A DNA stretch of 64,000 bases from a virus. This document shows, in pieces, positions 31,454 to 42,080 of this stretch. Position 1 is the stretch's first letter. The number at the start of each line of letters is the position of its first letter. A program made the position numbers and the translations under genes. Location of the stretch: the IMG/VR virus record IMGVR_UViG_3300042290_000544. The stretch is one strand, 5' to 3'. The notes beneath the pieces were generated by a model. It searched no databases and was not told the DNA's origin. It saw nothing but the letters and a program-made list of their open reading frames with translations.

Positions 31454-31951
31454 TTAATCATTGATAAAATCCACAATTTCTTGGATCATTTCTGGAGTGA
31501 GGTCCTGAGCTTCATAACCGTAATACGGCTTGATGTTAAAATACTTTGGAATCGGATCAATGAGGTTAAGAAATTCAATCTTGCTCATATTGTCTCTCCT
31601 AGGAAGGTTATCAATAAGGTATGATTGTGCATTTGGAAATCCAGACAGCTCAATTCCTCCGCGGATATGAATGTCGTCCCGATGATAGATTTGTGAATTC
31701 TTAAACCCTAATTTAAATACTTCATTCCAGCTTTCCGCATATTCCTGCGTTGCAGCGGTAAGAATGTAACAGGGTGCAATTTCTCTGAGTACCTTTAATA
31801 GGTCGAGTGCTCCGGGGCGGAGCACCGCTCTATAGGTATCATTATGGTCAATTTTAATGACCTTGGAACCTTCACGCGGCTCATCATTCCATGGGTCGCA
31901 ATGAATCAGAGTTTCATCAAGATCAACAAAAATGTATTTAGTTTTAGCCAT
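31454..31951 (-). CDS. HAD phosphatase (FCP1/NIF-like)
   Basis: DLDETLIH, LRPG, T.A...YA and LIDN motifs. Confidence 0.8.
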   Translation of the reverse strand: MAKTKYIFVDLDETLIHCDPWNDEPREGSKVIKIDHNDTYRAVLRPGALDLLKVLREIAPCYILTAATQEYAESWNEVFKLGFKNSQIYHRDDIHIRGGIELSGFPNAQSYLIDNLPRRDNMSKIEFLNLIDPIPKYFNIKPYYGYEAQDLTPEMIQEIVDFIND

Positions 31952-31987: not shown

Positions 31988-32028
31988 AAAAAAGGACCCA
32001 ATGAATTTATTTTTTCATTGGGTCCTTT
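31988..32028 (-). terminator. Terminator at the end of the tRNA island
   Basis: AAAGGACCCAATGAA/TTCATTGGGTCCTTT stem with U-run. Confidence 0.85.
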
Positions 32029-32114: not shown

Positions 32115-32780
32115 TTAGAACTTGAGGGTAACAGCCGAACGGAGACCAACCGTGGTCTTATCGAGATTGCCGTCCTGGAGGACAACAAAACCGGCTGATA
32201 GGACCTTCCATGAAGCATCAAGTGAACCGCCGTAGTAGGCATTGGTGTATTTGATTTCCTTGACGGTGCGTGGGAAAACATCATTTGCGTCGGTATAACC
32301 AGCAAATACTGTACCCGTGAGACCGAAGTCGCCAGCAAACTTGGCAGTTTGTGCAAACTTAGCTTCAACATTGGAGAGGTCGGATTCAACATCATAGCGT
32401 CCGGTAACGGTCACTGGACCCTTACCAACGGTAACGAATGGACGGAAGTGTCCATTTGAATCCTTACCCGGACGATTCTTCATTGCATACTCGGTACCAA
32501 CTTTTACGTCGGCAAGAGTTGAGACGAATGTATAACCGCCAAGGAATTTGAACTGGTAGAAATCGACAGAATCAATACCATTGAGATGGGTATCTGCCGA
32601 TGCTCCGACATTGAAACTGCCGATTGAGTAGTCGACTGCGGTAACAGCCGAACCCTTCGTATCAGTGACTTTGCCGAAGTCAATTCCTTTTTCTTGGTAT
32701 CCAACCGAAACCGTGCCGCCAGCAAAGGCAGACGCAACAGCAAGAACCGAGATGAGTGTGAGTTTGATTAGTTTATTCAT
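32115..32780 (-). CDS. Outer-membrane beta-barrel protein
   Basis: Signal peptide ending AFA, amphipathic strands, terminal Phe; late promoter upstream. Confidence 0.7.
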   Translation of the reverse strand: MNKLIKLTLISVLAVASAFAGGTVSVGYQEKGIDFGKVTDTKGSAVTAVDYSIGSFNVGASADTHLNGIDSVDFYQFKFLGGYTFVSTLADVKVGTEYAMKNRPGKDSNGHFRPFVTVGKGPVTVTGRYDVESDLSNVEAKFAQTAKFAGDFGLTGTVFAGYTDANDVFPRTVKEIKYTNAYYGGSLDASWKVLSAGFVVLQDGNLDKTTVGLRSAVTLKF

Positions 32781-32809: not shown

Positions 32810-32904
32810 TGGACCGCGTGTAGGGCTCGAACCTACATCTTCAGTTTCGTTCAGGGTGTACTTGACCTGTAACACTGAAATCTTATCCTTTAGACGAACG
32901 CGGT
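32810..32904 (-). ncRNA. tRNA-like RNA with expanded anticodon arm
   Basis: Acceptor, D and T arms present; 28-nt structured insert in place of the anticodon loop. Confidence 0.65.
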
Positions 32905-32923
32905 TTATGCTTTACTTTGCCGT

Positions 32924-33042
32924 ATTCCATAGCCTCATATTCGATCAATAATAGATCACATCCGATTCGCTACTTAGCCGATGGACTTTATTTAAAGACC
33001 GCGGATACGCATAATATCCGCGTGAGGTTCAGTACCTGGAAT
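32924..33042 (-). ncRNA. Candidate structured ncRNA
   Basis: ATTCCA/TGGAAT and CCTCA/TGAGG closing stems, CGCGGATA hairpin; follows a promoter and boxA-like site. Confidence 0.45.
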
Positions 33043-33113
33043 CTTTTGAGAATGACTGTAAAAGAACTATGATAGAACTATATCTCAACGCCGTCAAAAG
33101 TAAACAACAAAGT

Positions 33114-33350
33114 TCACTTTTTCTGCAATTCAATAAGTCTATCTAAAATGTAAAGAGCCATTTGAAAGTTTCCACAGTCAATGGCCGCAATTAGTTCTTT
33201 TTTCAAATTCCACGCCTTTTCAGCATCGGTCCACGCATCCATGCTATATGCAAGAGAGTTTGGCGTCAATGGAGAGTTTCTCGCATACGCATTGGCAACC
33301 GTCTTCATGGACGGATTCATTGCCATTGGTTGTATCGGTGCTATCTCCAT
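33114..33350 (-). CDS. Hypothetical protein
   Basis: ORF between RNA genes. Confidence 0.5.
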   Translation of the reverse strand: MEIAPIQPMAMNPSMKTVANAYARNSPLTPNSLAYSMDAWTDAEKAWNLKKELIAAIDCGNFQMALYILDRLIELQKK

Positions 33351-33382
33351 CTATCTATTTATTATTTTGTAACATTTAGAAG

Positions 33383-33459
33383 TGGTGCTCATTGTAGGAC
33401 TCGAACCTACGACCCTCTCGGTGTAAGCGAGATGCTCTAACCAACTGAGCTAAACGAGC
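33383..33459 (-). tRNA. tRNA-Val(UAC)
   Basis: Cloverleaf; loop CUUACAC. Confidence 0.9.
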
Positions 33460-33463
33460 AAAA

Positions 33464-33542
33464 TGGTTCACTATGGAACTGGAAGCCGTGTTCCTCCTTT
33501 TTGCCGGCATGGCAAACTGCTCTCCGTTGAGCTATTAGTGAA
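33464..33542 (-). ncRNA. tRNA-like RNA with non-canonical T and anticodon loops
   Basis: UUCACUA/UAGUGAA-CCA acceptor and GCUC/GAGC D arm; no TTC loop. Confidence 0.55.
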
Positions 33543-33544
33543 AA

Positions 33545-33915
33545 TGGTGGACCTGAGGGGAGTTGAACCCCTGTGTTCAATAATTTTTCCGATAATTTTC
33601 TACAAGCTTAGTACTACTTAACTGTCGCCATGATACCGTAATACTGTATCATGATTGTTTTGGTGAGGATACACATCTTGTACACCACTTCAAGACGGTC
33701 TCGCTTTTTATGACGAGTGTAACACTTAGCGAGAATCTGTGTTATCTACTCGATCACAGTTTTTAGGCTGCGAGTGGCATTTCTTCGGCGAAACCGAAGA
33801 AATTGCTGAGGGCTTTATTAATGCCGTTTAACTTTTTACCAGTTTTTAAAAGGTATCCGGAGAACCTTGCTTGCTTACTATAAGTCTATTACTGAGTCGA
33901 ATCCAGTACAGGCCC
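33545..33915 (-). ncRNA. ssrA: tmRNA
   Basis: 5' GGGCCUGUACUGGAUUCGAC, 3' T arm plus GGUCCACCA; internal tag GINKALSNFFGFAEEMPLAA*. Confidence 0.92.
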
Positions 33916-33936
33916 ATAAATTTAAAAGAACGAAAT

Positions 33937-34010
33937 TGGATGCTGGGGATGGAATTGAACCATCAGCTCCGCGTTATGAGCGCGACGAGTTACCGTTACT
34001 CTACCCGGCA
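33937..34010 (-). tRNA. tRNA-Met(CAU), initiator-like
   Basis: Loop CUCAUAA; GAGU/ACUC D stem as in initiator tRNAs. Confidence 0.8.
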
Positions 34011-34020
34011 GGAAAATGAA

Positions 34021-34269
34021 TTTGGGAGGATTAATGATTACCTCCATCGTCCTAGTGTTTTCAGTTATTCAGTCATATGGTGCCGTCGCACCTTAATAGT
34101 CCGCTTGTCATTGTATTTCATGCTTACAAGACTATACCTCTGGTTGCTTAGGTTGGCCGACCCAAGTTTTCAGCGTAGTACCTTACCTACTTACACATTG
34201 TAGAACTGAGTGATGTTCTTCACACCACCCATGCGTTAGCCCCATTAGAAAGGCTTATTCCGCCACAAA
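34021..34269 (-). ncRNA. Candidate ~250-nt structured ncRNA
   Basis: Multi-hairpin region without a credible ORF, flanked by U-rich spacers and a boxA-like site. Confidence 0.45.
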
Positions 34270-34291
34270 AATTAAAAAAGAACAAAAATTA

Positions 34292-34576
34292 GTGGGACCG
34301 TGGATTAATGCCACGCACCGGTCTGTCCCGTAACCTGCTGGTAGAACTTGTATCCAGCCAAGGCATTGGTTTAAAGAGTGACAATGCTTCCTCTCCAGGG
34401 TGTCGGGCAGTTTAAGTGCACCGACAAAATTTCTCTCATTCCGGCAACGTCAGCATACAGTCCCGACCAGTGCCTATTCCACTATTATCGAGATTCTACA
34501 ACTGTTGCAGACCGTGGTGACAATAGGTTCGTGAAACCAGTTGCAGAATGAGAGTCCAAGGAGATCAAGCCTTGGA
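34292..34576 (-). ncRNA. Candidate structured ncRNAs (34292-34426; 34433-34554)
   Basis: CTCTCATTC..GCAAC/GTTGC.GAATGAGAG closing stem plus a series of hairpins. Confidence 0.45.
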
Positions 34577-34643
34577 AAGTTTTTAGAAAGAACAAAACCG
34601 AATTGTAACGAGTGAGCCTCTATTCGTGGCTTTATATAAAAAG

Positions 34644-34817
34644 TCAAGATTTAAAGAATGCCGTTAGTAAAGTTCCGAAAAAGCAAACAACATTACCAAC
34701 AAGCAAAGAGATAGAATATTTGTTCCAGCTCCGCATAAAGCCTGGGCGGTCCACGATGACTTTCCAGAAGGTGAATAACCAACCAGCGAAGAACAACAAA
34801 GTTAATATTAGTTTCAT
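34644..34817 (-). CDS. Small 2-TM membrane protein (57 aa)
   Basis: MKLILTLLFFAGWLFTFWKV...FFKS; below the ORF-track cutoff. Confidence 0.55.
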   Translation of the reverse strand: MKLILTLLFFAGWLFTFWKVIVDRPGFMRSWNKYSISLLVGNVVCFFGTLLTAFFKS

Positions 34818-34861
34818 AAAAGTAATAGTGAAGGGAATTTATAAAGAAAGTCAAGAAAAAA

Positions 34862-35239
34862 TGTCCACGGAGTCGAACCGTTTTTCACATAATATGATTA
34901 TGGGCCACCACCTTCTAGCTAGAAAGGCTGGACAAAAATGAATCAAGTAGATGTTCGGTGTATTTGTCAATTTCCGCACCGTAGCCAATCAGCCCTAGAC
35001 ATATTAGGCGATTATTTTCATTAAACGGGTATCTACTTGAAATTGAATCAGTGGTGAAGTTGCAGCAATTTATCTTCACTTTACATATACCTGCTTGGAT
35101 AGTATCCTCACTGAAAATTAGATAGAATCGTATAGGCCGTGAAGATTTCAAGAGTCTTTGGGTCTTGCCATCCGTCGCACCCTGCGAAGTCCAATTAGGC
35201 CGAAAGAGCGGCATTTTTGTAACCTCTGATACGATTCTA
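34862..35239 (-). ncRNA. Four tandem stem-closed small RNA candidates (34862-34934, 34943-35040, 35048-35114, 35123-35239)
   Basis: Terminal inverted repeats TGTCCA, TCAAGTAGAT, TCAGTG and TAGAATCGTAT; the first has a GGUUCGACUCC T-loop. Confidence 0.55.
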
Positions 35240-35342
35240 AAAGTTTTTAAAGAACAAAAATTGGTGGACTTTATCGTTGCCCGACGACGGTGGATTTATA
35301 CCACAGGCTCCGTACTGATTACCGTTTGCCATTTTTTCAAAT

Positions 35343-35419
35343 TGGTGCCTCCTCCGAGATTCGAACTCGGAACCCACTGATTAAAAGTCAGCAGCTCTGA
35401 ACCGTTGAGCTAAGGAGGC
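35343..35419 (-). tRNA. tRNA-Lys(UUU)
   Basis: Loop CUUUUAA. Confidence 0.92.
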
Positions 35420-35490
35420 GTAAATTGTAAATGAACGAAATTAATTATGGTACAATCATACACATATTCATTTAAAAGTAAACAACAAAA

Positions 35491-35566
35491 TGGTGCCCCC
35501 GAGGGAATTCGAATCCCTGTATGCACCGTGAAAGGGTGATGTCCTAGGCCACTAGACGACGGGGGC
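35491..35566 (-). tRNA. tRNA-Glu(UUC)
   Basis: Loop CUUUCAC. Confidence 0.92.
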
Positions 35567-35595
35567 AATAAAAATGTGTTTTAAAAGAACAAAAG

Positions 35596-35670
35596 TGGTG
35601 CCCCGAGAGGGAATCGAACCCCCATTAACCGCTTAGAAGGCGGTGGTCCTATCCGTTGAACGACCGAGGC
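35596..35670 (-). tRNA. tRNA-Arg(UCU)
   Basis: Loop CUUCUAA. Confidence 0.92.
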
Positions 35671-35808
35671 ATTAAAAAGAACTAAAACCGAGACACTTGA
35701 AGTGTTGCTCAATTTCATAATACAATCATACATCAATGTCGGTCAAAGTAAAACAAATAATGCAACTTCGACTGTGTTTAAGTTGTTGATGGTCAACAAC
35801 CGCACAAA

Positions 35809-36303
35809 TTAATGGATAATGACTCTACATTTTTTTGAGGAATCTGATTTTAGAAGTGTGTCCCAGGACTTTCTCCAGCGTTTGTAATTCGTGGGGCAAA
35901 AGCTACCCTCTGGAATTTTCTGGTGGGTATCAGATTCAACACTATCCTTCTTCATGGAATCAAACCCCCACATATGAATCTCCGTGTAACCGTTCTGCAT
36001 TAACCAGAACACTCCACGATGCCCAGTGGATTCACCAGCCCTCAGTTGATGATGCATTACATCTCGAATCTCGGGAGCCGGATTGCATTGAGTCGCAATC
36101 TTTTTAATTGCATTCGGGATGATGACGGGAAAATTCAACTTCAGTTTATTGTTATGGATGTGGTTGATCACCACCTTGTCCATAATGAAGGTCGCCTTGA
36201 GCGGCAACGCAGGGTCCGACAGGTTACATCCAAAGATGTCACCCTGAGGCGTATTGATAAAATCCTTTCGAGAAGGACCGTTTCCGAGAATATGTGCAAT
36301 CAT
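35809..36303 (-). CDS. GNGPS-motif glycosyltransferase-like (Maf/sialyltransferase-fold) protein
   Basis: ILGNGPS, GCN, STG and WGFD motifs. Confidence 0.6.
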   Translation of the reverse strand: MIAHILGNGPSRKDFINTPQGDIFGCNLSDPALPLKATFIMDKVVINHIHNNKLKLNFPVIIPNAIKKIATQCNPAPEIRDVMHHQLRAGESTGHRGVFWLMQNGYTEIHMWGFDSMKKDSVESDTHQKIPEGSFCPTNYKRWRKSWDTLLKSDSSKKCRVIIH

Positions 36304-36307
36304 AGAG

Positions 36308-36382
36308 TGGAGCGGAAGAAGGGACTCGAACCCTCAACATCTTCGTTGGCAACGAAGTGCTCGACCATTGAGCTACTTCCGC
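36308..36382 (-). tRNA. tRNA-Gly(GCC)
   Basis: Loop UUGCCAA. Confidence 0.92.
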
Positions 36383-36394
36383 AAATTGTTTAAG

Positions 36395-36470
36395 TGGAGC
36401 TTCCAATCAGGGTTGAACTGATGACCTCGTCCTTACCAAGAACGTGCTCTACCAGCTGAGCTATGGAAGC
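36395..36470 (-). tRNA. tRNA-Thr(GGU)
   Basis: Loop UUGGUAA. Confidence 0.92.
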
Positions 36471-36495
36471 GTTTGGTATATGTATACATGATAAA

Positions 36496-36572
36496 TGGTG
36501 CCTCAGGTGGGAGTCGAACCCACAAAATTTAGATTCTAAATCTAACACGTATGCCAATTCCGTCACCGAGGC
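36496..36572 (-). tRNA. tRNA-Leu(UAG), short variable loop
   Basis: Loop UUUAGAA. Confidence 0.85.
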
Positions 36573-36580
36573 TAAAAAAG

Positions 36581-36657
36581 TGGTGCTCGGAGAGAGATTC
36601 GAACTCTCAGCAGCTACTCCCTCAAAGTAGTGTGTTTACCAATTTCACCATCCGAGC
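36581..36657 (-). tRNA. tRNA-Leu(GAG), short variable loop
   Basis: Loop UUGAGGG. Confidence 0.85.
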
Positions 36658-36668
36658 AAAAAGTTATA

Positions 36669-36746
36669 TGGTACCCACGGTGGGAGTCGAACCCACAGTT
36701 GAACAGATTTTAAGTCTGTTGTGTCTACCAATTCCACCACGAGGGC
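36669..36746 (-). tRNA. tRNA-Leu(UAA), short variable loop
   Basis: Loop CUUAAAA. Confidence 0.85.
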
Positions 36747-36757
36747 ATAACATAAAA

Positions 36758-36831
36758 TGGCTCCCCAACTAGGGTTCGAACCTAGACTAGGTGAGTCAAA
36801 GTCACCTGTGCTACCATTACACAATCGGGGA
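36758..36831 (-). tRNA. tRNA-Gln(UUG)
   Basis: Loop CUUUGAC. Confidence 0.9.
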
Positions 36832-36835
36832 AAAG

Positions 36836-36912
36836 TGGTGGACCCGGTGGGATTTTAACCCACGATCTAGGGATTATGAGTCCCTTGCTTTAGGACGCTA
36901 AGCTACAAGTCC
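36836..36912 (-). tRNA. tRNA with CAU anticodon (Ile2- or Met-type)
   Basis: Loop CUCAUAA; T-loop UUAAAAU is atypical. Confidence 0.75.
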
Positions 36913-36919
36913 TCGAAAT

Positions 36920-36994
36920 TGGCTGGCAAAGTAGGACTCGAACCTACAACCCTCGCATTAACAGTGCGATGCTCTGCCATTGAGCTATATGCCA
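36920..36994 (-). tRNA. tRNA-Asn(GUU)
   Basis: Loop CUGUUAA. Confidence 0.92.
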
Positions 36995-36998
36995 AAAG

Positions 36999-37076
36999 TG
37001 GTCCGAGCGGCGGGATTTGAACCCACAGTCTTCTGCTCCCAAAGCAGACGCGATAGCCAAGTTACGCTACGCTCGG
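36999..37076 (-). tRNA. tRNA-Pro(UGG)
   Basis: Loop UUUGGGA. Confidence 0.9.
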
Positions 37077-37083
37077 ATGAAAT

Positions 37084-37161
37084 TGGTGGTGCCGGAGGGA
37101 GTTGAACCCTCACGCTATTCCGGGTAAGAACCGGATGCCCGTCCACTGTGGCTTCAGCACC
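37084..37161 (-). tRNA. tRNA-Lys(CUU)
   Basis: Loop UUCUUAC. Confidence 0.8.
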
Positions 37162-37171
37162 GAAAATAATT

Positions 37172-37255
37172 AACGTCCGACCGATGGGTTTGCACCACGA
37201 GAGGTTCCTGAGTCAACTGTACCTCTTTGCTATCGACTTTAACGTATCGGACGTT
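37172..37255 (-). ncRNA. Stem-closed small RNA candidate
   Basis: AACGTCCGA/TCGGACGTT terminal stem between tRNAs. Confidence 0.5.
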
Positions 37256-37283
37256 TAATTCCGGTAATTAATCGGAATCAAAA

Positions 37284-37361
37284 TGGCGGGATGGACGGGA
37301 CTCGAACCCGCGACCTTCTGCGTGACAGGCAGACGCTCTAAACCAGCTGAGCTACCACCCC
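37284..37361 (-). tRNA. tRNA-Asp(GUC)
   Basis: Loop CUGUCAC. Confidence 0.92.
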
Positions 37362-37427
37362 TAAAGTTTCACACAGCCATTATTGTCATTGATATAAATC
37401 GAGAGGACTACTGTGTATGTTAAATTA

Positions 37428-37899
37428 TTTGAATAGATGTAGCTTTGCTTTATATGACTACACTCCAGCGAGTTTCTTATTTACGCATAAGCTCCAACAC
37501 GTTTAATGTTTCCCAATAAACGTACTGTTATGAACTCAGAGGCTTTTCGTTACTTCCATGTTTTTCCGCTGACGGTTAGACCCCGTGCTCGTACCGAAGA
37601 TGGAAACAATCTTCTACATTCCGAGCTGCTATTCAAAATTGGATCCTTCTGCCATACAAGTCTTCCAGAACATTTCCAGAAGATGAATGCACTTGTATGC
37701 GTTACACTCTTAAACCCCCTAAAGGAACGCAACCTTTTACACAGGTATAAGATTGCCCAGTTTCTTAGCAACATGGAGCTTTACCTTAGCGCCGGCGAAT
37801 GTAACGGTCTGCATAAACACAGAAGAAATTAATTTGATAGTTGATTCCGTACCCAAGACTATTAAAGCTGTCCTCATTAAGGGTGTGCTAACTATCAAA
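37428..37899 (-). ncRNA. Three stem-closed RNA candidates (37428-37637, 37640-37825 with 3' CCA, 37833-37899)
   Basis: Terminal stems TTTGAATAG/CTATTCAAA, CTTCTG/CAGAAG and TTTGATAGTT/AACTATCAAA. Confidence 0.5.
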
Positions 37900-37901
37900 A
37901 T

Positions 37902-38013
37902 TGGATTGCGGGCTGGACTCGATACCAGCTGACAGCGCCAAATATCCGCGACTTAGCGGGGTCCCTTGCTGCCGTGGACTCGGAAGGCTGCGTGTCCTTC
38001 CACGCCGCCGCAA
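37902..38013 (-). ncRNA. ~112-nt tRNA-like RNA
   Basis: UUGCGG/CCGCAA-UCCA acceptor, GCGUG-GAAGGA-CACGC D arm, GCUGG/CCAGC T arm, branched central domain. Confidence 0.65.
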
Positions 38014-38019
38014 ATTGAA

Positions 38020-38079
38020 TGCGATTGTGACCGCTTATCAGGTCACTACAAGCGTGGAGACTAAGATCCCTCTATCGCA
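38020..38079 (-). ncRNA. Small stem-closed RNA candidate with possible pseudoknot
   Basis: TGCGAT/ATCGCA terminal stem; GTGACC hairpin whose loop GCTT matches AAGC. Confidence 0.4.
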
Positions 38080-38082
38080 AAT

Positions 38083-38157
38083 TGGCACGGACGGAGGGAA
38101 TCGCACCCTCATAAGGCAGTTTTGGAGACTGCTGCACTACTAATGTACCACGTCCGT
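38083..38157 (-). tRNA. tRNA-Trp(CCA)
   Basis: Loop CUCCAAA; T-loop UGCGAUU. Confidence 0.85.
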
Positions 38158-38166
38158 AAAAATAAA

Positions 38167-38244
38167 TGGGGCGATCAACGGGGCTTGAACCCGTAACCCC
38201 GAAAATCACAATCTCGTGCTCTGGCCAATTGAGCTATGATCGCC
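38167..38244 (-). tRNA. tRNA-His(GUG)
   Basis: Loop UUGUGAU; 8-bp acceptor with G-1. Confidence 0.9.
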
Positions 38245-38249
38245 GTAAA

Positions 38250-38327
38250 TGGAGCGCCAGACAGGACTCGAACCTGCATGTAACTGTTTTGCAAACAGAA
38301 GTTTAGCCTTTCAACAACACTGGCGCC
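38250..38327 (-). tRNA. tRNA-Cys(GCA)
   Basis: Loop UUGCAAA; U73. Confidence 0.85.
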
Positions 38328-38332
38328 TAAAA

Positions 38333-38408
38333 TGGTAGTAGCGGTGGGAATTGAACCCACATAAAAGAGCTTATGAAACTCTTGCCTTGACCAATCGACC
38401 TCGCTACT
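38333..38408 (-). tRNA. tRNA with CAU anticodon (Met- or Ile2-type)
   Basis: Loop UUCAUAA. Confidence 0.75.
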
Positions 38409-38417
38409 GTAAATTAA

Positions 38418-38528
38418 TTATTCGGTCGGAACTTCAATCGAAGGTCTTATCGACCCGCGCGGCTCACTAGGCCGTCCTACGTCGTTAAGTGTGTACGACA
38501 ACACGGACTTTTACCGTTAACCGAATAA
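38418..38528 (-). ncRNA. Stem-closed small RNA candidate
   Basis: TTATTCGGT/ACCGAATAA terminal stem with internal hairpins. Confidence 0.5.
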
Positions 38529-38634
38529 ATTTTTGCTAAGATAAAAAATTAGTTACTTCTGTAATTATCCGTTAATCGCTACCCTGATGCGGTAGAGTTT
38601 TCACTGACGCCTTACCGTCCCGATATGCAAAAAA

Positions 38635-38710
38635 TGGTGGGAGCTTCTGGTAACGATCCAGATTCTTGCCGTCTTCAGCGGCACGTGAGCACCTGCTTCA
38701 CCAAACTCCC
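38635..38710 (-). tRNA. tRNA-Phe(GAA)
   Basis: Loop CUGAAGA. Confidence 0.85.
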
Positions 38711-38719
38711 GTAAATGAA

Positions 38720-38804
38720 TTTGTCGTCTCACATGGAGATAAGTTTTTCCTGTTTGAGATTAAAACTACTTGCGGCCTATCAGTCCGCGTTTTTCGTTGA
38801 CAAA
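38720..38804 (-). ncRNA. Stem-closed small RNA candidate
   Basis: TTTGTC/GACAAA ends with internal hairpins. Confidence 0.35.
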
Positions 38805-38806
38805 AG

Positions 38807-38882
38807 TGGTAGACCCGGAAGGATTCGAACCTTCAATACAACGTTCGTAGCGTTGCGTGATAATCCGTTTCACTACGGGTCT
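38807..38882 (-). tRNA. tRNA-Arg(ACG)
   Basis: Loop CUACGAA. Confidence 0.88.
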
Positions 38883-38889
38883 ATAAAAA

Positions 38890-38986
38890 TGAGTAGTACC
38901 GATTGTTCCGAGCACGGTTACCTGTTGTTCAACATACTGAATGATAACACCGACTCCTGTTTTACGAACAACTGGATTTCTACTCA
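38890..38986 (-). ncRNA. Stem-closed small RNA candidate
   Basis: TGAGTAG/CTACTCA 7-bp terminal stem between tRNAs. Confidence 0.45.
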
Positions 38987-38989
38987 AAA

Positions 38990-39075
38990 TGGTGGGCACG
39001 CTTGGACTCGAACCAAGGGTTATCCGAAGAGGGGACATTTACAGTGTCCTGCAATAGCCGCTATGCGACGCGCCC
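38990..39075 (-). tRNA. tRNA-Tyr(GUA)
   Basis: Loop CUGUAAA; long variable arm. Confidence 0.9.
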
Positions 39076-39081
39076 GAAAAA

Positions 39082-39157
39082 TGGAGCGGTAGACAGGGAT
39101 CGAACCTGCGACATCAAGTTTGGAAAACTCGCTCTCTACCAACTGAGATACTACCGC
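39082..39157 (-). tRNA. tRNA-Gly(UCC)
   Basis: Loop UUUCCAA. Confidence 0.9.
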
Positions 39158-39162
39158 AAAAA

Positions 39163-39239
39163 TGGTGGTCCAGGTCGGATTCGAACCAACGACCCCCGCC
39201 TTATCAAGACGATGCTCTAACCAACTGAGCTACTAGACC
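39163..39239 (-). tRNA. tRNA-Ile(GAU)
   Basis: Loop UUGAUAA. Confidence 0.9.
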
Positions 39240-39244
39240 GAAAA

Positions 39245-39334
39245 TGGCGGAAATAGAAGGATTCGAACCTTCGGGGCTTTTGAGGACCCGAGACTTTAGC
39301 AAAGTCTTGCCTTAAACCACTCGGCCATATTTCC
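39245..39334 (-). tRNA. tRNA-Ser(GCU)
   Basis: Loop UUGCUAA; long variable arm. Confidence 0.92.
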
Positions 39335-39341
39335 TAAAATT

Positions 39342-39428
39342 AGGAAGGGGTGGGATTCGAACCCACGGTCGTTTTTAGGCGACTCAAGTTTTCAAGACTA
39401 GCGCCTTAAACCACTCAGCCACCCTTCC
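39342..39428 (-). tRNA. tRNA-Ser(UGA), CCA not encoded
   Basis: Loop CUUGAAA; long variable arm. Confidence 0.88.
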
Positions 39429-39437
39429 GTAAAATAA

Positions 39438-39509
39438 CAGTAGTTACATTGGGTTGTAACCTTCCCCAGACTCAACAGGTTTGGAGTTCTTCTGTGGAAG
39501 AACTTACTG
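39438..39509 (-). ncRNA. Stem-closed small RNA candidate
   Basis: CAGTAGTT/AACTTACTG and CTTCC/GGAAG nested stems. Confidence 0.4.
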
Positions 39510-39513
39510 AAAA

Positions 39514-39588
39514 TGGAGCCCCCGATGGGATTTGAACCCGCAACCGCTTGTTTACAAAACAAGTGCTCTACCATTGAGCTACAAGGGC
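39514..39588 (-). tRNA. tRNA-Thr(UGU)
   Basis: Loop UUUGUAA. Confidence 0.92.
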
Positions 39589-39597
39589 AAACTAACA

Positions 39598-39662
39598 TCC
39601 CACCATGCACCTAGAAGCATTGCTGCTTTCACGGATGAACCCGACATTCAGTGCAGGTAGGA
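39598..39662 (-). ncRNA. Stem-closed small RNA candidate
   Basis: UCCUACCUGCAC/GUGCAUGGUGGGA stem on the minus strand (G-U pair supports this strand). Confidence 0.45.
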
Positions 39663-39821
39663 AAAATTGCCCGGCTGTTATTTAAAGACGTCCGGGGCTC
39701 GTCTGTTTTTATTTGAAAAAAGAACTAATTTTACCCCTCTCAGCCTTTGCTGGTTTGGATACCCTTTGTCGGTCGTTTGGACTCCTTAAAGCCGGAGTCT
39801 GGCAGTGAAATTGAAAGTGAT

Positions 39822-39854
39822 AAAAAAACCTCTGAGCTTTATGGCCCAGAGGTT
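39822..39854 (-). terminator. Attenuator terminator upstream of the tRNA array
   Basis: CCUCUGGGC-CAUAAA-GCUCAGAGG-UUUUUUU on the minus strand. Confidence 0.85.
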
Positions 39855-39998: not shown

Positions 39999-40040
39999 TA
40001 TTTATAAGACAATCATACCCTATTTCCATCAAAAGTAAAC
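39999..40040 (-). promoter_or_regulatory. Tandem early (GTTTAC-17-TATGAT) and late (TATAAATA) promoters of the RNA island
   Basis: -35 at 40035-40040, -10 at 40012-40017, TATAAATA at 39999-40006. Confidence 0.75.
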
Positions 40041-40374: not shown

Positions 40375-41058
40375 TCATTGTAGATAAAGATATGGCTTCC
40401 ATTCCTCGCGGATACCCATATCCTCGGGAATTTGAACACCGATTCGGATACGGTTCTTTGGAACCACTTCCTTGCCATTGATGTCGAAGTATGGAAAAAT
40501 GTTGTCCTTGGCAGCATTACAGTCGCGGCAGGCAAGAACAAGGTTGAACCCGTCATTGGTACCACCCTTCGACTTGGGATGCACGTGATCCTTGGTGGCA
40601 ACGCAGAAAGGTATCTTTTTGAGGCAGTACTGACAGGTGCCCTTATAGATGCTGTAAAGACTCCGAAGTGAGGTTTGCTGACCACGACGAACAGTATGTC
40701 CGAAGTGAGTAGTGCAGACGACGATGGTCGGAATTGCCCATTGCTTTTCTTCACCGCTGATACGGTCGGGAGCCGAACGTAAACAGGGCTGATTAGAAAA
40801 TAGTTCTATGGTGTTCTTCGACCAAGAATAGCCGTCATTGTCTTCACGACCGTCCCATGGAATTGTGTTACCACTGGCGTCAATACCGTGAGCCCTACCA
40901 TTCATCATATGACGCATGCACGCACGCGCAGTAAAGAAGGCATAGGCTTGGTACGAACCGTCAAGCACCAAGGTGGTCCGTGCGGTTGCATCAACGGGCG
41001 TCAATACATTAACCTGTAATTGATTTAACAACTGAAGAGAAGCCTTTTCGTGGGACAT
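40375..41058 (-). CDS. HNH endonuclease
   Basis: CQYC, T.DHV.PKSKGG....NLVLAC..CN..K motifs. Confidence 0.88.
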   Translation of the reverse strand: MSHEKASLQLLNQLQVNVLTPVDATARTTLVLDGSYQAYAFFTARACMRHMMNGRAHGIDASGNTIPWDGREDNDGYSWSKNTIELFSNQPCLRSAPDRISGEEKQWAIPTIVVCTTHFGHTVRRGQQTSLRSLYSIYKGTCQYCLKKIPFCVATKDHVHPKSKGGTNDGFNLVLACRDCNAAKDNIFPYFDINGKEVVPKNRIRIGVQIPEDMGIREEWKPYLYLQ

Positions 41059-42080
41059 TGTATTTGCGAGCGTTAGAGTAGGATTCACCATTGAGCACTT
41101 GGCAGTGGCCAGCGGTTTTGTGGTCCCAGATCATGATACCAAAGCGGTTGACCTTGGTCTCACGTGGGACGAAGTTAGGGTCGGGTAGGATACCAGACCG
41201 AATAAGACTTTGAATGATTTTGTCGTTGGACATTTTAGTAAGTGGTAAAACAAACACCCCAAGCGGGCGCGTTTTCATCTTTTTTAAGACCTGGATAACC
41301 TGGATAAACAGGATGGGTACGCGCAATTGTATCATAGTTAGCATACTCAGAATTGTAGACTACTGCTTCGACGTCTCCATGTTTGGCCTTAACAGCATTG
41401 AGTTCGTTAATTAATTCGGAGATTTTCATATTTAAGAAAGTAGCAGAGTTTTTATAAATGTCGAGACTTATTTTTTCTTTTTAAACAAAATGTTATGGAT
41501 CGCATTTATGTCGTCGGCTGAAATTTCGTCGGTTTTGAGAAATGAAGCGAACACATTTCGGATGTCTCTTTTCATTGCGTCAAGTTCGATCCACTCTGCA
41601 ATGTCAATGTTTTTTTGATTTGGTTTCATTTTTCAAACTTTGAATTTTTGCCTTCACTTGGTCAATTCTTTTTTTCGTAGCTTCGATTTTTTCTTGGCTT
41701 GGGTTTACGTCGGTCAACAGATAACGAAGATTTGTTTCGTTCCAAGTCAATTCAAATTCCGCATTTCTTAAATCGGTGTTGTGTTTCATTTGTAGAATTT
41801 ATGATTTTCGATTGTTTGTTACTTCTTTTCCTTTTCGAGAATCTCCTTCAATTCCTTGGCGAAATCAAGGACAAAGTATTCATCCAATCCAAGATCGCCC
41901 TTACACCAATGATCCCCACCGAGGCGCTTTGCGTGCTTATTGAAAAGCTTATCCACTAGTTCTTGAAATTCGTCGTTGGTCATTATGATATAATCCTACA
42001 CTAAATTGGCTAAAAGTAAATCAATTAGATTGTCCTAAGTTGTTGATTAGTAATGTCAATGTTTTTTTGTTTTGGTTTCA

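What the first reader, a model, noticed from the sequence alone, without database searches (positions are those of the whole stretch)
32810..39662. About 20 unidentified stem-closed small RNAs interleaved with the tRNAs
Seen: almost every gap between tRNAs holds a 60-250 nt unit whose ends form a 6-11 bp inverted repeat, separated by the same short U-rich spacers as the tRNAs. Examples: 34433-34554, 34943-35040, 35048-35114, 35123-35239, 37172-37255, 37428-37637, 37640-37825, 37833-37899, 38418-38528, 38890-38986, 39438-39509, 39598-39662. They do not resemble one another and carry no credible ORFs. Inference: a library of discrete ncRNAs released by tRNA processing, possibly decoys or antitoxin-like sponges against host defence. 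T4 species 1/2 RNAs and GOLLD/ROOL RNAs are precedents for RNAs in phage tRNA clusters, but this number and diversity is unusual.
Basis: partly seen in the sequence, partly recalled or inferred. Interest (0 to 1): 0.75.

Follow-up and report, generated by a model that had tools for sequence, protein, structure and literature searches.

The report
RNA cassette library inside phage tRNA array
The gaps in this lake phage's tRNA gene array hold about 22 different folded small-RNA genes, punctuated like the tRNAs and swapped one by one between related phages; most belong to no known family, and no RNA data could be obtained to show that they are made or what they do.

Summary
Observation confirmed. 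On the minus strand between 39662 and 32812, besides 29 tRNAs and a tmRNA, lie 22 non-coding units of 48-261 nt plus 3 mini-hairpins and one tRNA-shaped RNA. Each is closed by its own terminal helix and set off by about 7-nt, 86% A+T linkers, as between the tRNAs.

Terminal inverted repeats alone are no better than chance. Three independent tests support the units:
- Whole inter-tRNA gaps fold into stem-closed domains far more than shuffles (76% vs 26%, 0/300).
- Substitutions in relatives preserve pairing (42 compensatory changes vs 11.6 expected, 34 of them in internal helices).
- Indels and transfers between relatives start and stop exactly at unit ends; one 85-nt unit is 100% identical in an array with a different tRNA order.

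The units do not resemble each other or T4 RNAC/RNAD. One is manA-like and several are tRNA mimics. Sister phages carry pistol ribozymes, and a more distant phage carries GOLLD, within their tRNA arrays.

Best reading: one rrn-like untranslated operon (early promoters, boxA-like sites, one terminal terminator) delivers an exchangeable library of small RNAs released by tRNA-processing nucleases. Expression, processing and function are untested. The decoy idea is untested.

The scan has noted this theme in at least 55 other genomes.

The parts
39598..39662 (-). Unit U39662, 65 nt, just upstream of tRNA-Thr(tgt)
   Evidence: 7-bp terminal stem, MFE z -2.47. Identical or near-identical copies in L004, L086, L087, L088 and L092. 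Only one variable column, so no covariation test.
39438..39509 (-). Unit U39509, 72 nt, between Thr and Ser(tga)
   Evidence: Ends pair by only 4-5 bp, z -1.39. Only an identical copy in L004. L002 has a different unit in this slot and L087 has none. Weakly supported.
38890..38986 (-). Unit U38986, 97 nt, between Tyr and Arg(acg)
   Evidence: 7-bp stem, z -1.69. In L101 it sits between Arg(acg) and Glu at 94% identity, with identity bounded by CCA-TTTT and the stem end. No net covariation signal on the window MFE.
38720..38804 (-). Unit U38804, 85 nt, between Arg(acg) and Phe
   Evidence: A 100% identical copy lies between Leu(tag) and Leu(caa) in L097, L098, L100 and L101, whose tRNA order differs. 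Identity starts right after the tRNA CCA and ends at the stem end. L004 has two other units in this slot.
38530..38633 (-). Unit U38633, 104 nt, after tRNA-Phe
   Evidence: 6-7 bp stem, z -1.34. Only the L004 copy is known.
38418..38528 (-). Unit U38528, 111 nt, before tRNA-Met
   Evidence: 8-9 bp stem kept in 4 distinct homologs. Relocated to the Tyr-Arg slot in L002. 2 compensatory pairs vs 0.4 expected.
38019..38080 (-). Unit U38080, 62 nt, after tRNA-Trp, followed by TTCA (TCCA in L002)
   Evidence: 6-bp stem, z -1.93. Present in L002; absent in L006 and L087.
37907..38011 (-). Unit U38011, 105 nt, tRNA-like end: closing stem, T-arm-like hairpin, then ATCCA
   Evidence: Fold. L002 lacks exactly these 105 nt. 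L014 has a 72-nt version without the 5' hairpin and with a G-U-compensated closing stem.
37833..37899 (-). Unit U37899, 67 nt
   Evidence: 9-10 bp stem. 97% identical in L014 and L002, with 1 compensatory pair.
37640..37825 (-). Unit U37825, 186 nt, ends GGATCCA
   Evidence: z -2.83; sense fold is 17 kcal/mol more stable than antisense. 6 distinct homologs with indels of 1, 4 and 19 nt, so the 25-codon ORF is not kept. No compensatory pairs on the MFE structure.
37428..37637 (-). Unit U37637, 210 nt
   Evidence: 8-bp stem invariant in the six sequences aligned (a seventh, from L101, was added). 4 compensatory pairs vs 0.6 expected and 6 broken vs 14.5 (P about 0.004 and 0.002). z -2.71.
37370..37417 (-). 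Unit U37417, 48 nt, before tRNA-Asp
   Evidence: 8-bp stem with one compensatory A-U to G-C change in L002. Absent in L006.
37256..37280 (-). 25-nt hairpin after tRNA-Asp
   Evidence: 8-bp hairpin. Travels together with U37255 in L101.
37172..37255 (-). Unit U37255, 84 nt, between Asp and Lys(ctt)
   Evidence: 10-bp stem. The 90% homolog in L097, L098 and L101 has a compensatory change in the closing stem.
35262..35338 (-). Unit U35338, 77 nt, ends CCACCA; weak
   Evidence: z +0.47, ends not paired in the MFE. T-arm-like hairpin and CCA tail followed by a boxA-like site. No distinct homolog.
35123..35239 (-). Unit U35239, 117 nt
   Evidence: 11-bp stem, z -3.3. Only an identical L004 copy, so no covariation test.
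35048..35114 (-). Unit U35114, 67 nt, followed by TTCA
   Evidence: 6-bp stem, z -1.3. No distinct homolog.
34943..35040 (-). Unit U35040, 98 nt, followed by TTCA
   Evidence: 10-bp stem, z -2.04. 93% homolog in L014, downstream of that phage's tmRNA.
34864..34935 (-). Degenerate tRNA-like unit
   Evidence: GGTTCGACTCC T-arm. ARAGORN calls it tRNA-Met only when its score threshold is lowered to 75%. z about 0.
34556..34577 (-). 22-nt hairpin after a boxA-like site
   Evidence: Identical in L005, L006, L007 and L010. Always precedes the U34554 family.
34433..34554 (-). Unit U34554, 122 nt; best-supported new RNA family
   Evidence: z -3.79. 6 distinct homologs, 94% of cells paired. 14 pairs changed on both sides vs 5.0 in shuffles (0/500) and 0-3 in slid controls. 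The closing stem is rewritten yet complementary in L014.
34400..34425 (-). 26-nt hairpin
   Evidence: Identical in 5 relatives. Absent, together with U34396, in L091 and L092.
34290..34396 (-). Unit U34396, 107 nt; the 3' half is a minihelix (5-bp stem plus T-arm-like hairpin, then ACTA)
   Evidence: Fold. 97-98% identical in 5 relatives, too few changes to test. z about 0.
34015..34275 (-). Unit U34275, 261 nt, manA-like RNA
   Evidence: Rfam manA 22.2 bits, below the gathering score of 55.2. 8 distinct homologs including a 76% one in L017. 14 covarying pairs in RNAalifold. 9 compensatory pairs vs 2.1 expected.
33467..33542 (-). Unit U33542, 76 nt, cloverleaf-like with encoded CCA, between tmRNA and tRNA-Val
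   Evidence: z -2.45. The L006 homolog (81%) has 3 compensatory pairs, 2 of them in the closing stem. Not called a tRNA by Rfam or ARAGORN.
32812..32904 (-). tRNA-shaped RNA whose anticodon arm is replaced by a long covarying helix
   Evidence: Rfam tRNA 41.6 bits. ARAGORN -i reads tRNA-Val(tac) with a 21-nt insert. 6-7 compensatory pairs, with the apex of the long arm covarying.
40012..40039 (-). Promoter-like site (TTTACT-16-TATGAT) ahead of the array; similar sites at 35717-35752, 35455-35482 and 33069-33104
   Evidence: The extended repeat GTTTACTTTTR occurs 3 times vs 0.1 expected.
39827..39854 (-). Terminator-like hairpin upstream of the array
31991..32028 (-). Strong terminator-like hairpin right after the last tRNA (Ala)
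   Evidence: 15-bp stem plus T run, the strongest minus-strand terminator-like site downstream of 39827. The scan also lists three weak minus-strand sites of 5-6 stem pairs (36208-36191 inside the 164-aa ORF, 38034-38021 inside U38080, 39941-39928 upstream), and the total count is not above shuffles (12 vs 8.7 +/- 2.6).
33921..35682 (-). Six boxA-like sites GTTCTTT(T)AA(A) at 33921, 34273, 34583, 35246, 35580 and 35672; a variant lies near 39725
   Evidence: 5 matches vs 0.8 expected (0/100), all on the minus strand inside the array. Conserved in the linkers of relatives.

Best explanation
The region from about 40040 to 31990 (minus strand) is one long, mostly untranslated RNA operon built like an rRNA operon. 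It has several T4-early-type promoters, repeated boxA-like sites that would keep RNA polymerase from terminating on untranslated RNA, and one strong terminator after the last tRNA.

Besides 29 tRNAs and a tmRNA it encodes at least 22 other self-contained RNAs. Each folds on itself, closes with its own terminal helix, and is separated from its neighbours by the same ~7-nt U-rich linkers that separate the tRNAs.

I infer that host tRNA-maturation nucleases cut the precursor in these linkers. RNase E would cut the A/U-rich single strands. RNase P would cut where the closing helix plus a T-arm-like hairpin and an N-CCA tail mimic an acceptor end. The terminal helix would then protect each released RNA from exonucleases, giving discrete stable small RNAs, as for T4 RNAC and RNAD.

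The RNAs are accessory cargo. Units, and individual tRNA genes too, are gained, lost, moved and replaced one at a time between closely related phages and even between arrays with different tRNA order. Breakpoints fall in the linkers, probably by recombination at the short shared CCA-TTTT-like sequences.

The cargo is mixed:
- tRNA mimics;
- a manA-like RNA;
- many RNAs of no known family;
- pistol self-cleaving ribozymes in sister phages' arrays, and GOLLD in a more distant phage's array.

The most likely general role is to act on the host's translation or RNA-processing machinery, or on tRNA-directed defences, during infection.

Shown: modular anatomy, conserved folds, cassette exchange. Inferred: co-transcription, excision, stability. 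Unknown: the function of any unit.
For: - Anatomy and chance: 76% vs 26 +/- 10% of gap bases in stem-closed domains, 0/300; mean z -1.69; tRNAs -2.0; identical linker statistics.
- Conserved folds: pooled over 16 families, with the structure taken from the window sequence alone, there are 42 compensatory pair states vs 11.6 expected, 34 of them internal. There are 84 broken vs 127 +/- 7. Both are 0/2000 (earlier run).
- Single families: U34554 has 14 vs 5.0 pairs changed on both sides, 0/500, with slid controls 0-3.
- Non-coding: indels are not multiples of 3.
- One transcription unit: promoter-like sites and the two strong minus-strand terminator-like hairpins that flank the array, against only three weak ones elsewhere; boxA-like sites enriched and confined to this strand of the array.
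- Cassette exchange:
  - L004, 99% identical, has units inserted or replaced exactly at the linkers.
  - L002 lacks exactly U38011, and L006 lacks exactly three units plus U37417.
  - U38528 is relocated.
  - U38804 is 100% identical between different tRNAs in an array of different order, with identity bounded by CCA and the stem end.
  - tRNA identities are bimodal: 58-72% against 93-100%.
- Known RNAs in other arrays of this phage group: pistol in L007, L010, L014 and L017; GOLLD in the more distant L035.
- Precedent: T4 rnaC and rnaD abut tRNA-Arg, with roles unknown (PMC3014915).
Against: - No RNA data: no run could be searched, so transcription, ends and stability are all inferred.
- Terminal inverted repeats as such are not beyond chance.
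- Seven units have no distinct homolog and so no covariation test. U37825 and U38986 show no covariation on the MFE structure. U35338, U34935 and U34396 have z about 0.
- Sense and antisense folds are equally stable for the small units: the sense fold is the more stable in 10 of 23. Strand is therefore assigned mainly by context.
- Only about 5 of 26 units carry CCA after the stem, so RNase P recognition is plausible for only a minority.
- Presence or absence differing between 99%-identical phages shows that each unit is dispensable.
Confidence: 0.7

Rival explanations
1. Insulated filler. The units are decayed tRNA genes and other junk that persists in the array only if it folds on itself, so that it does not disturb folding and processing of neighbouring tRNAs. 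They have no function of their own.
For: Each unit is dispensable, since content differs between 99%-identical phages. At least one unit is a degenerate tRNA (34864-34935). Several have tRNA-like ends with decayed CCA (TTCA, TCTA). Some have z about 0.
Against: 34 of 42 compensatory changes lie in internal helices, not in the insulating closing stem. Long single-stranded blocks are invariant in U37637, U37825 and U34275. Identical or near-identical units have spread into arrays of different tRNA order, which is unexpected for junk. The corresponding part of sister phages' arrays holds bona fide RNAs such as pistol.
Confidence: 0.13
2. Cis-acting processing or regulatory modules. The units serve the array itself, as self-cleaving ribozymes, nuclease entry sites or pause and antitermination structures that set tRNA maturation or dosage. 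They are not trans-acting RNAs.
For: Pistol ribozymes occupy slots in sister arrays. Theta ribozymes are proposed to cut the 3' trailers of phage tRNAs (PMC10879173). boxA-like sites lie in the linkers.
Against: In the same array 15 tRNA pairs abut with only 4-12 nt between them, so tRNAs need no such module. No window unit matches any ribozyme family even at E<=5. Runs of 5-6 units follow each other with no tRNA between them. Units move independently of particular tRNAs.
Confidence: 0.12
3. DNA-level mobile elements, MITE-like or integron attC-like, whose terminal inverted repeats act in DNA.
For: Units move as discrete blocks bounded by their inverted repeats.
Against: The terminal repeats all differ and share no core site. 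There are no target-site duplications beyond the common linker. Internal helices covary, and G-U pairs are conserved on the tRNA strand. The large units fold 10-17 kcal/mol better in sense.
Confidence: 0.04
4. Small protein-coding genes.
For: Short ORFs can be drawn in some units, for example 25 codons in U37825.
Against: Indels of 1, 2, 4, 7 and 19 nt among homologs. The substitution pattern follows base pairing.
Confidence: 0.01

Closest known systems
Phage T4 RNAC (species 1) and RNAD (species 2), small stable RNAs of the T4 tRNA cluster
   Same: A T4-like phage. Non-tRNA RNAs of 119-139 nt lie on the tRNA strand, abutting tRNA-Arg with 1-6 nt linkers. rnaC has a T-arm and rnaD ends in ACCA, like units U38011, U33542 and U35338 here. 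Function is still unknown (PMC3014915, PMC9697503).
   Different: There is no sequence similarity beyond the T-loop. T4 has two; this genome has about 22, and a handful of relatives add dozens more families. T4's RNAs are not closed by long terminal helices in their MFE folds. Cassette exchange has not, to my knowledge, been described for them.
GOLLD and ROOL large RNAs near phage tRNA islands
   Same: Structured RNAs of unknown function that sit in or beside phage tRNA arrays and may be co-transcribed with them (PMC5737381, PMC12286853). GOLLD with a nested tRNA is present in the array of a distant relative, L035.
   Different: No GOLLD or ROOL hit in the window. The units here are 48-261 nt and unrelated to each other, rather than one large conserved family.
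Self-cleaving ribozymes in phage RNA operons: pistol (RF02679) and tRNA-linked theta ribozymes
   Same: Pistol ribozymes occupy slots of the same syntax in L007, L010, L014 and L017, at 38-54.5 bits against a gathering score of 34.5. Theta ribozymes flank phage tRNAs (PMC10879173). New ribozyme classes were found by searching near known ones (PMC6765202).
   Different: No window unit matches any ribozyme model. Self-cleavage of the units is untested.
manA RNA motif (RF01745)
   Same: U34275 shares the GAAUAA-containing stem and the GGUA...UAAUCC hairpin with the manA consensus.
   Different: It scores 22.2 bits against a gathering score of 55.2. It is about 70 nt longer, and the middle of the model is unmatched. 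It lies inside an RNA operon rather than in a 5' UTR.
Bacterial rRNA operons (boxA antitermination, several RNAs cut from one untranslated precursor)
   Same: A long untranslated multi-RNA transcript. Repeated GTTCTTT(T)AA(A) sites resemble rrn boxA, UGCUCUUUAACAA (consensus from my own knowledge). Products are bracketed by helices formed from their two ends.
   Different: boxA function and Nus-factor binding are untested here. The cargo is an exchangeable set of unrelated small RNAs, not a fixed set.

Membership tests
T4-type tRNA-cluster stable RNAs (RNAC/RNAD class; defined by position, not sequence) | Non-tRNA RNA gene inside the tRNA cluster, on the same strand, with tRNA-like short linkers | tested here: met
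T4-type tRNA-cluster stable RNAs (RNAC/RNAD class; defined by position, not sequence) | Sequence homology to T4 rnaC or rnaD | tested here: not met
   blastn finds only T-loop matches, and those fall on tRNAs. There are no hits in related arrays.
T4-type tRNA-cluster stable RNAs (RNAC/RNAD class; defined by position, not sequence) | Accumulates as a discrete stable RNA cut from the tRNA precursor | not testable with these tools
manA RNA (RF01745), for 34015-34275 | Score at or above Rfam's gathering score | tested here: not met
   22.2 bits vs 55.2.
manA RNA (RF01745), for 34015-34275 | Conserved terminal hairpin GGUA..UAAUCC and GAAUAA stem | tested here: met
   Aligned with high posterior probability and invariant in 8 homologs.
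tRNA (RF00005), for 32812-32904 | Cloverleaf score above the gathering score | tested here: met
   41.6 bits vs 29. Acceptor, D and T arms covary or are conserved.
tRNA (RF00005), for 32812-32904 | Canonical 7-nt anticodon loop | tested here: not met
   The anticodon arm continues into a 13-14 bp helix with a variable, covarying apex. ARAGORN needs a 21-nt 'intron' to call it.
Pistol ribozyme (RF02679) | Covariance-model match in the window | tested here: not met
   None at gathering or at E<=5. Met only in relatives L007, L010, L014 and L017.
GOLLD / ROOL | Covariance-model match in the window | tested here: not met
   GOLLD is found only in L035.
MITE / integron attC-type DNA elements | Shared terminal repeat or core site among copies | tested here: not met
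   The terminal stems all differ and no unit resembles another.
Retron msr-msd RNA (ends paired by a1/a2 repeats) | Adjacent reverse transcriptase gene | not tested
   I did not scan all window ORFs for a reverse transcriptase. No retron RNA family was hit in Rfam.

The most novel reading that the evidence does not exclude
The tRNA arrays of these lake phages are a shared, horizontally traded library of RNA accessory genes. The unit of DNA exchange equals the unit of RNA processing. The unclassified units would include new functional classes. Some would be new self-cleaving ribozymes or ligand- or protein-binding RNAs, which fits their sharing array syntax with pistol cassettes. Others would be tRNA mimics that decoy tRNA-targeting defence nucleases or titrate tRNA-handling enzymes. 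Exchange would be driven by a dedicated mechanism acting at the CCA-TTTT linkers, such as an endonuclease-stimulated or RNA-mediated one, rather than by chance recombination.
Probability: 0.2. Interest if true: 0.9.

Novelty: new variant of a known kind. Interest (0 to 1): 0.68.

Why it matters
T4's two tRNA-cluster RNAs have had no known function for fifty years. Here the same kind of gene appears as about 22 unrelated folded RNAs in one genome, with dozens more in a few relatives. They are under selection for structure and are traded like accessory genes.

This gives many independent, compact test cases, each 50-260 nt with defined ends, for three questions:
- what phages do with non-tRNA RNAs in tRNA operons;
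- whether new ribozyme or tRNA-mimic classes can be found there;
- how long untranslated phage RNA operons are transcribed and cut.

The cassette behaviour also shows that tRNA arrays evolve gene by gene, including xenologous replacement of single tRNAs. That bears on how phages tune tRNA sets against host defences.

Tried and rejected
- Inverted-repeat tiling test. Repeats of 7-9 bp or more, G-T allowed, cover shuffled gaps almost as well as the real ones (P about 0.07, 0.4 and 0.07). I dropped it as evidence.
- Strand from folding energy. Sense and antisense do not differ overall.
- Rfam at E<=5 on the array. Apart from tRNA, tmRNA, the weak manA hit and the tRNA-shaped 32812-32904, every other row overlaps an annotated tRNA or the tmRNA, or lies outside the array.
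- GenBank phages. No match to the Trp-Asp or Lys-Met gaps. The whole-region search returned only tRNA matches.
- G001, the nearest held record, does not cover the array.
- A tRNA-Lys(ttt) anchor scan of viral contigs found nothing.
- The supplement of PMC10690425 is not held. I could not check whether any unit is among its 10,006 candidate viral RNAs.
- Coding reading rejected because of the indel lengths.
- MITE or attC reading rejected because the units share no ends.
- GTTCTTT motif as a promoter for the next RNA: rejected, because it lies only about 10 nt from the tmRNA 5' end. boxA-like is the better reading.
- The 164-aa protein inside the array has no Pfam or PHROG hit. Its fold resembles CstII/MptE-type nucleotide-binding transferases only weakly. 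No link to RNA processing was found.

Full report
**What is there**

ARAGORN and Rfam find 29 tRNAs and a tmRNA, all on the minus strand, between 39588 and 32032. The window belongs to an uncultured T4-like freshwater phage (proteins; earlier notes).

Read in the direction of transcription, the gaps longer than 40 nt that hold no ORF break up into units. Each unit has paired ends and is separated from the next by a few A/T-rich bases.

Folding the gaps whole, or with a 280-nt span limit, recovers the same units plus others. The total is:
- 22 units of 48-261 nt;
- three hairpins of 22-26 nt;
- one tRNA-shaped RNA at 32812-32904.

Linkers beside units have a median of 7 nt and 86% A+T. That is the same as between abutting tRNAs. 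The units show no similarity to one another.

**Is it more than chance?**

A plain search for terminal inverted repeats is not. Repeats of 7-9 bp tile dinucleotide shuffles nearly as well. Three tests that do not depend on picking stems by eye are positive.

(i) I took 17 non-redundant inter-tRNA gaps from the window and three relatives, bounded only by ARAGORN calls. 76% of their bases lie in MFE domains of at least 45 nt closed by at least 6 bp. Shuffles give 26 +/- 10% (0 of 300). Unit MFE z-scores average -1.69, against -2.0 for the array's own tRNAs.

(ii) Covariation. For 16 unit families with distinct homologs I took the structure from the window sequence alone and permuted alignment columns within nucleotide classes.
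- There are 42 compensatory pair states vs 11.6 expected.
- There are 84 broken pairs vs 127 +/- 7 expected.
- Both results are 0/2000 (earlier run).
- 34 of the 42 compensatory states are in internal helices and 8 are in closing stems.

Several families stand out:
- The U34554 family has 14 pairs changed on both sides vs 5.0 in shuffles (0/500), with 0-3 in slid controls. In L014 its closing stem is entirely rewritten yet still complementary.
- U34275, U37637, U33542 and the tRNA-shaped RNA are individually significant.

Indels among homologs are 1, 2, 4, 7 and 19 nt, so the units are not coding.

(iii) Boundaries defined by other genomes.
- L004 is 98-99.7% identical over the shared region, yet it has three extra units between Gly and Tyr. 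It has one extra unit plus TCCATTTT inserted directly after the CCATTTT of tRNA-Tyr. It also has two different units in place of U38804.
- L002 lacks exactly the 105 nt of U38011 and has one extra unit between U37825 and U37637.
- L006 lacks exactly three units plus U37417.
- U38528 sits in a different slot in L002.
- A lineage with a different tRNA order (L097, L098, L101) carries seven of the window's units at 90-100% identity.
- In that lineage U38804 is 100% identical between Leu(tag) and Leu(caa) rather than Arg and Phe. Its identity starts right after the CCA and ends at the last pair of the closing stem.

The tRNA genes behave the same way. Identities between orthologous arrays are bimodal, at 58-72% or 93-100%.

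**Limits**

- Seven units have no distinct homolog.
- U37825 and U38986 show no covariation on the MFE fold.
- Three units have z about 0.
- Folding energy does not tell sense from antisense for the small units. The four largest favour the tRNA strand by 10-17 kcal/mol.

**How the region is probably expressed**

On the minus strand there are promoter-like sites of the T4-early type (GTTTAC...TATGAT). They lie at 40039-40012, 35752-35717, 35482-35455 and 33104-33069.

The strong terminator-like hairpins on this strand lie at 39854-39827 (11-bp stem), upstream of the first unit, and at 32028-31991 (15-bp stem), right after the last tRNA. The same scan lists three weak minus-strand sites of 5-6 stem pairs. 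They lie at 36208-36191 inside the 164-aa ORF, at 38034-38021 inside U38080, and at 39941-39928 upstream of the array. The scan's total is not above shuffles (12 found vs 8.7 +/- 2.6).

- Five or six copies all lie on the minus strand between 33921 and 35682. About 0.8 are expected by chance (0/100).
- A variant lies near 39725.
- The motif is conserved in the linkers of relatives, as far out as L014 and L017.
- It resembles rrn boxA; that consensus comes from my own knowledge.

A long untranslated transcript would need protection from Rho. So the motif fits co-transcription of units and tRNAs, but it is not proof.

Excision is inferred. The linkers are A/U-rich single strands of the kind RNase E cuts. 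About five units carry CCA, and five more TTCA, just after the closing stem. Several combine that with a T-arm-like hairpin, as RNase P substrates do. No RNA data could be obtained.

**What the units are**

None reaches an Rfam gathering score except the tRNA-shaped 32812-32904 (41.6 bits). In that RNA the anticodon arm continues into a long helix whose apex covaries. It is therefore a tRNA mimic rather than a decoder.

- U33542 is cloverleaf-like and has an encoded CCA.
- U38011, U34396 and U35338 have acceptor/T-arm-like 3' modules.
- 34864-34935 is a degenerate tRNA.
- U34275 shares signature hairpins with the manA motif but scores 22 against a gathering score of 55.

The remaining units match nothing, and neither large gap has a match among GenBank phages.

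Other phages of this group carry pistol self-cleaving ribozymes in the corresponding part of their arrays: L010:1043-1108, L007:1478-1543, L014:12670-12736 and L017:2595-2654. A more distant phage carries GOLLD with a nested tRNA.

Pistol itself was discovered by searching near other ribozymes, and some RNAs found that way remain unexplained (PMC6765202). Theta ribozymes flank tRNAs in gut phages (PMC10879173).

**Comparison with the known**

The closest precedent is T4 RNAC and RNAD. They abut tRNA-Arg with 1-6 nt linkers and have tRNA-like features. Their roles are unknown (PMC3014915, PMC9697503). The window's units are not homologous to them.

GOLLD and ROOL are known neighbours of phage tRNA islands.

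Relative to the papers I could search, these points appear new:
- the scale: about 22 unrelated RNAs in one array, and more than 40 families in about six lineages;
- the uniform tRNA-like punctuation;
- unit-by-unit horizontal exchange.

I could not check the 10,006 candidate viral RNAs of PMC10690425, because its supplement is not held.

This scan has noted the same theme in at least 55 other genomes, including the same Trp-Asp units in sister phages. Unlike some of those cases, the closing stems here are all different rather than one shared stalk.

**Verdict**

I class it as a new variant of a known kind.

Noticed in passing
window 32812-32904 (-): tRNA-shaped RNA with intact acceptor, D and T arms. 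Its anticodon arm runs on into a 13-14 bp helix with a variable, covarying apex. ARAGORN -i reads it as tRNA-Val(tac) with a 21-nt insert at 37/38. It is conserved in L005, L006 and L091.
   Followed up: partly
L010:1043-1108, L007:1478-1543, L014:12670-12736, L017:2595-2654: Pistol self-cleaving ribozymes (Rfam 38-54.5 bits, gathering score 34.5) sit as cassettes in the tRNA arrays of sister phages, between the manA-like or U34554-like units and tRNA-Met. The window has none.
   Followed up: partly
L035:563-1022: GOLLD RNA (182 bits) with a tRNA nested at 625-696, in the tRNA array of a distant phage that also carries a homolog of the 164-aa protein.
   Followed up: no
window 33921-35682 (-), variant near 39725: The boxA-like motif GTTCTTT(T)AA(A) is repeated six times in the linkers, usually right after a CCA end. 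It is confined to the array and conserved in relatives as far out as L014 and L017.
   Followed up: partly
window 35809-36303 (-): A 164-aa protein embedded in the array. Homologs occur in many environmental phages, often next to tRNAs (47 proteins, 72 viral loci). It has no Pfam or PHROG family. A confident model (pLDDT 94) weakly resembles CstII sialyltransferase and MptE-type nucleotide-binding folds.
   Followed up: partly
window array vs L002, L006, L014: Single tRNA genes are replaced by xenologs of the same anticodon. Identity is bimodal: for example Lys(ctt) 58%, Cys 68% and Thr(ggt) 66%, against 97-100% for their neighbours. tRNA-Trp is 100% identical to that of L014, whose 164-aa protein is only 60% identical.
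   Followed up: partly
window 34644-34817 (-): A 57-aa hydrophobic ORF with its own TTGACT...TATAAAT promoter-like site lies in the middle of the non-coding Lys-Met gap. A 78-aa ORF (33114-33350) and a 221-aa ORF with a signal-peptide-like start (32115-32780) also lie inside the array.
   Followed up: no
window 40375-41091 (-) and 31454-31951 (-): An HNH endonuclease gene lies just upstream of the array, and a NIF/HAD-type phosphatase gene lies just downstream. T4 has the SegB homing endonuclease inside its tRNA cluster. A role in cassette exchange is conceivable but untested.
   Followed up: no
window 40012-40039, 35455-35482, 33069-33104 (-): Extended repeat TTGTTGTTTACTTTTGA...TATGATTGT (3 exact GTTTACTTTTR vs 0.1 expected). 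These are probably the phage's early promoters, firing into the array at several points.
   Followed up: partly
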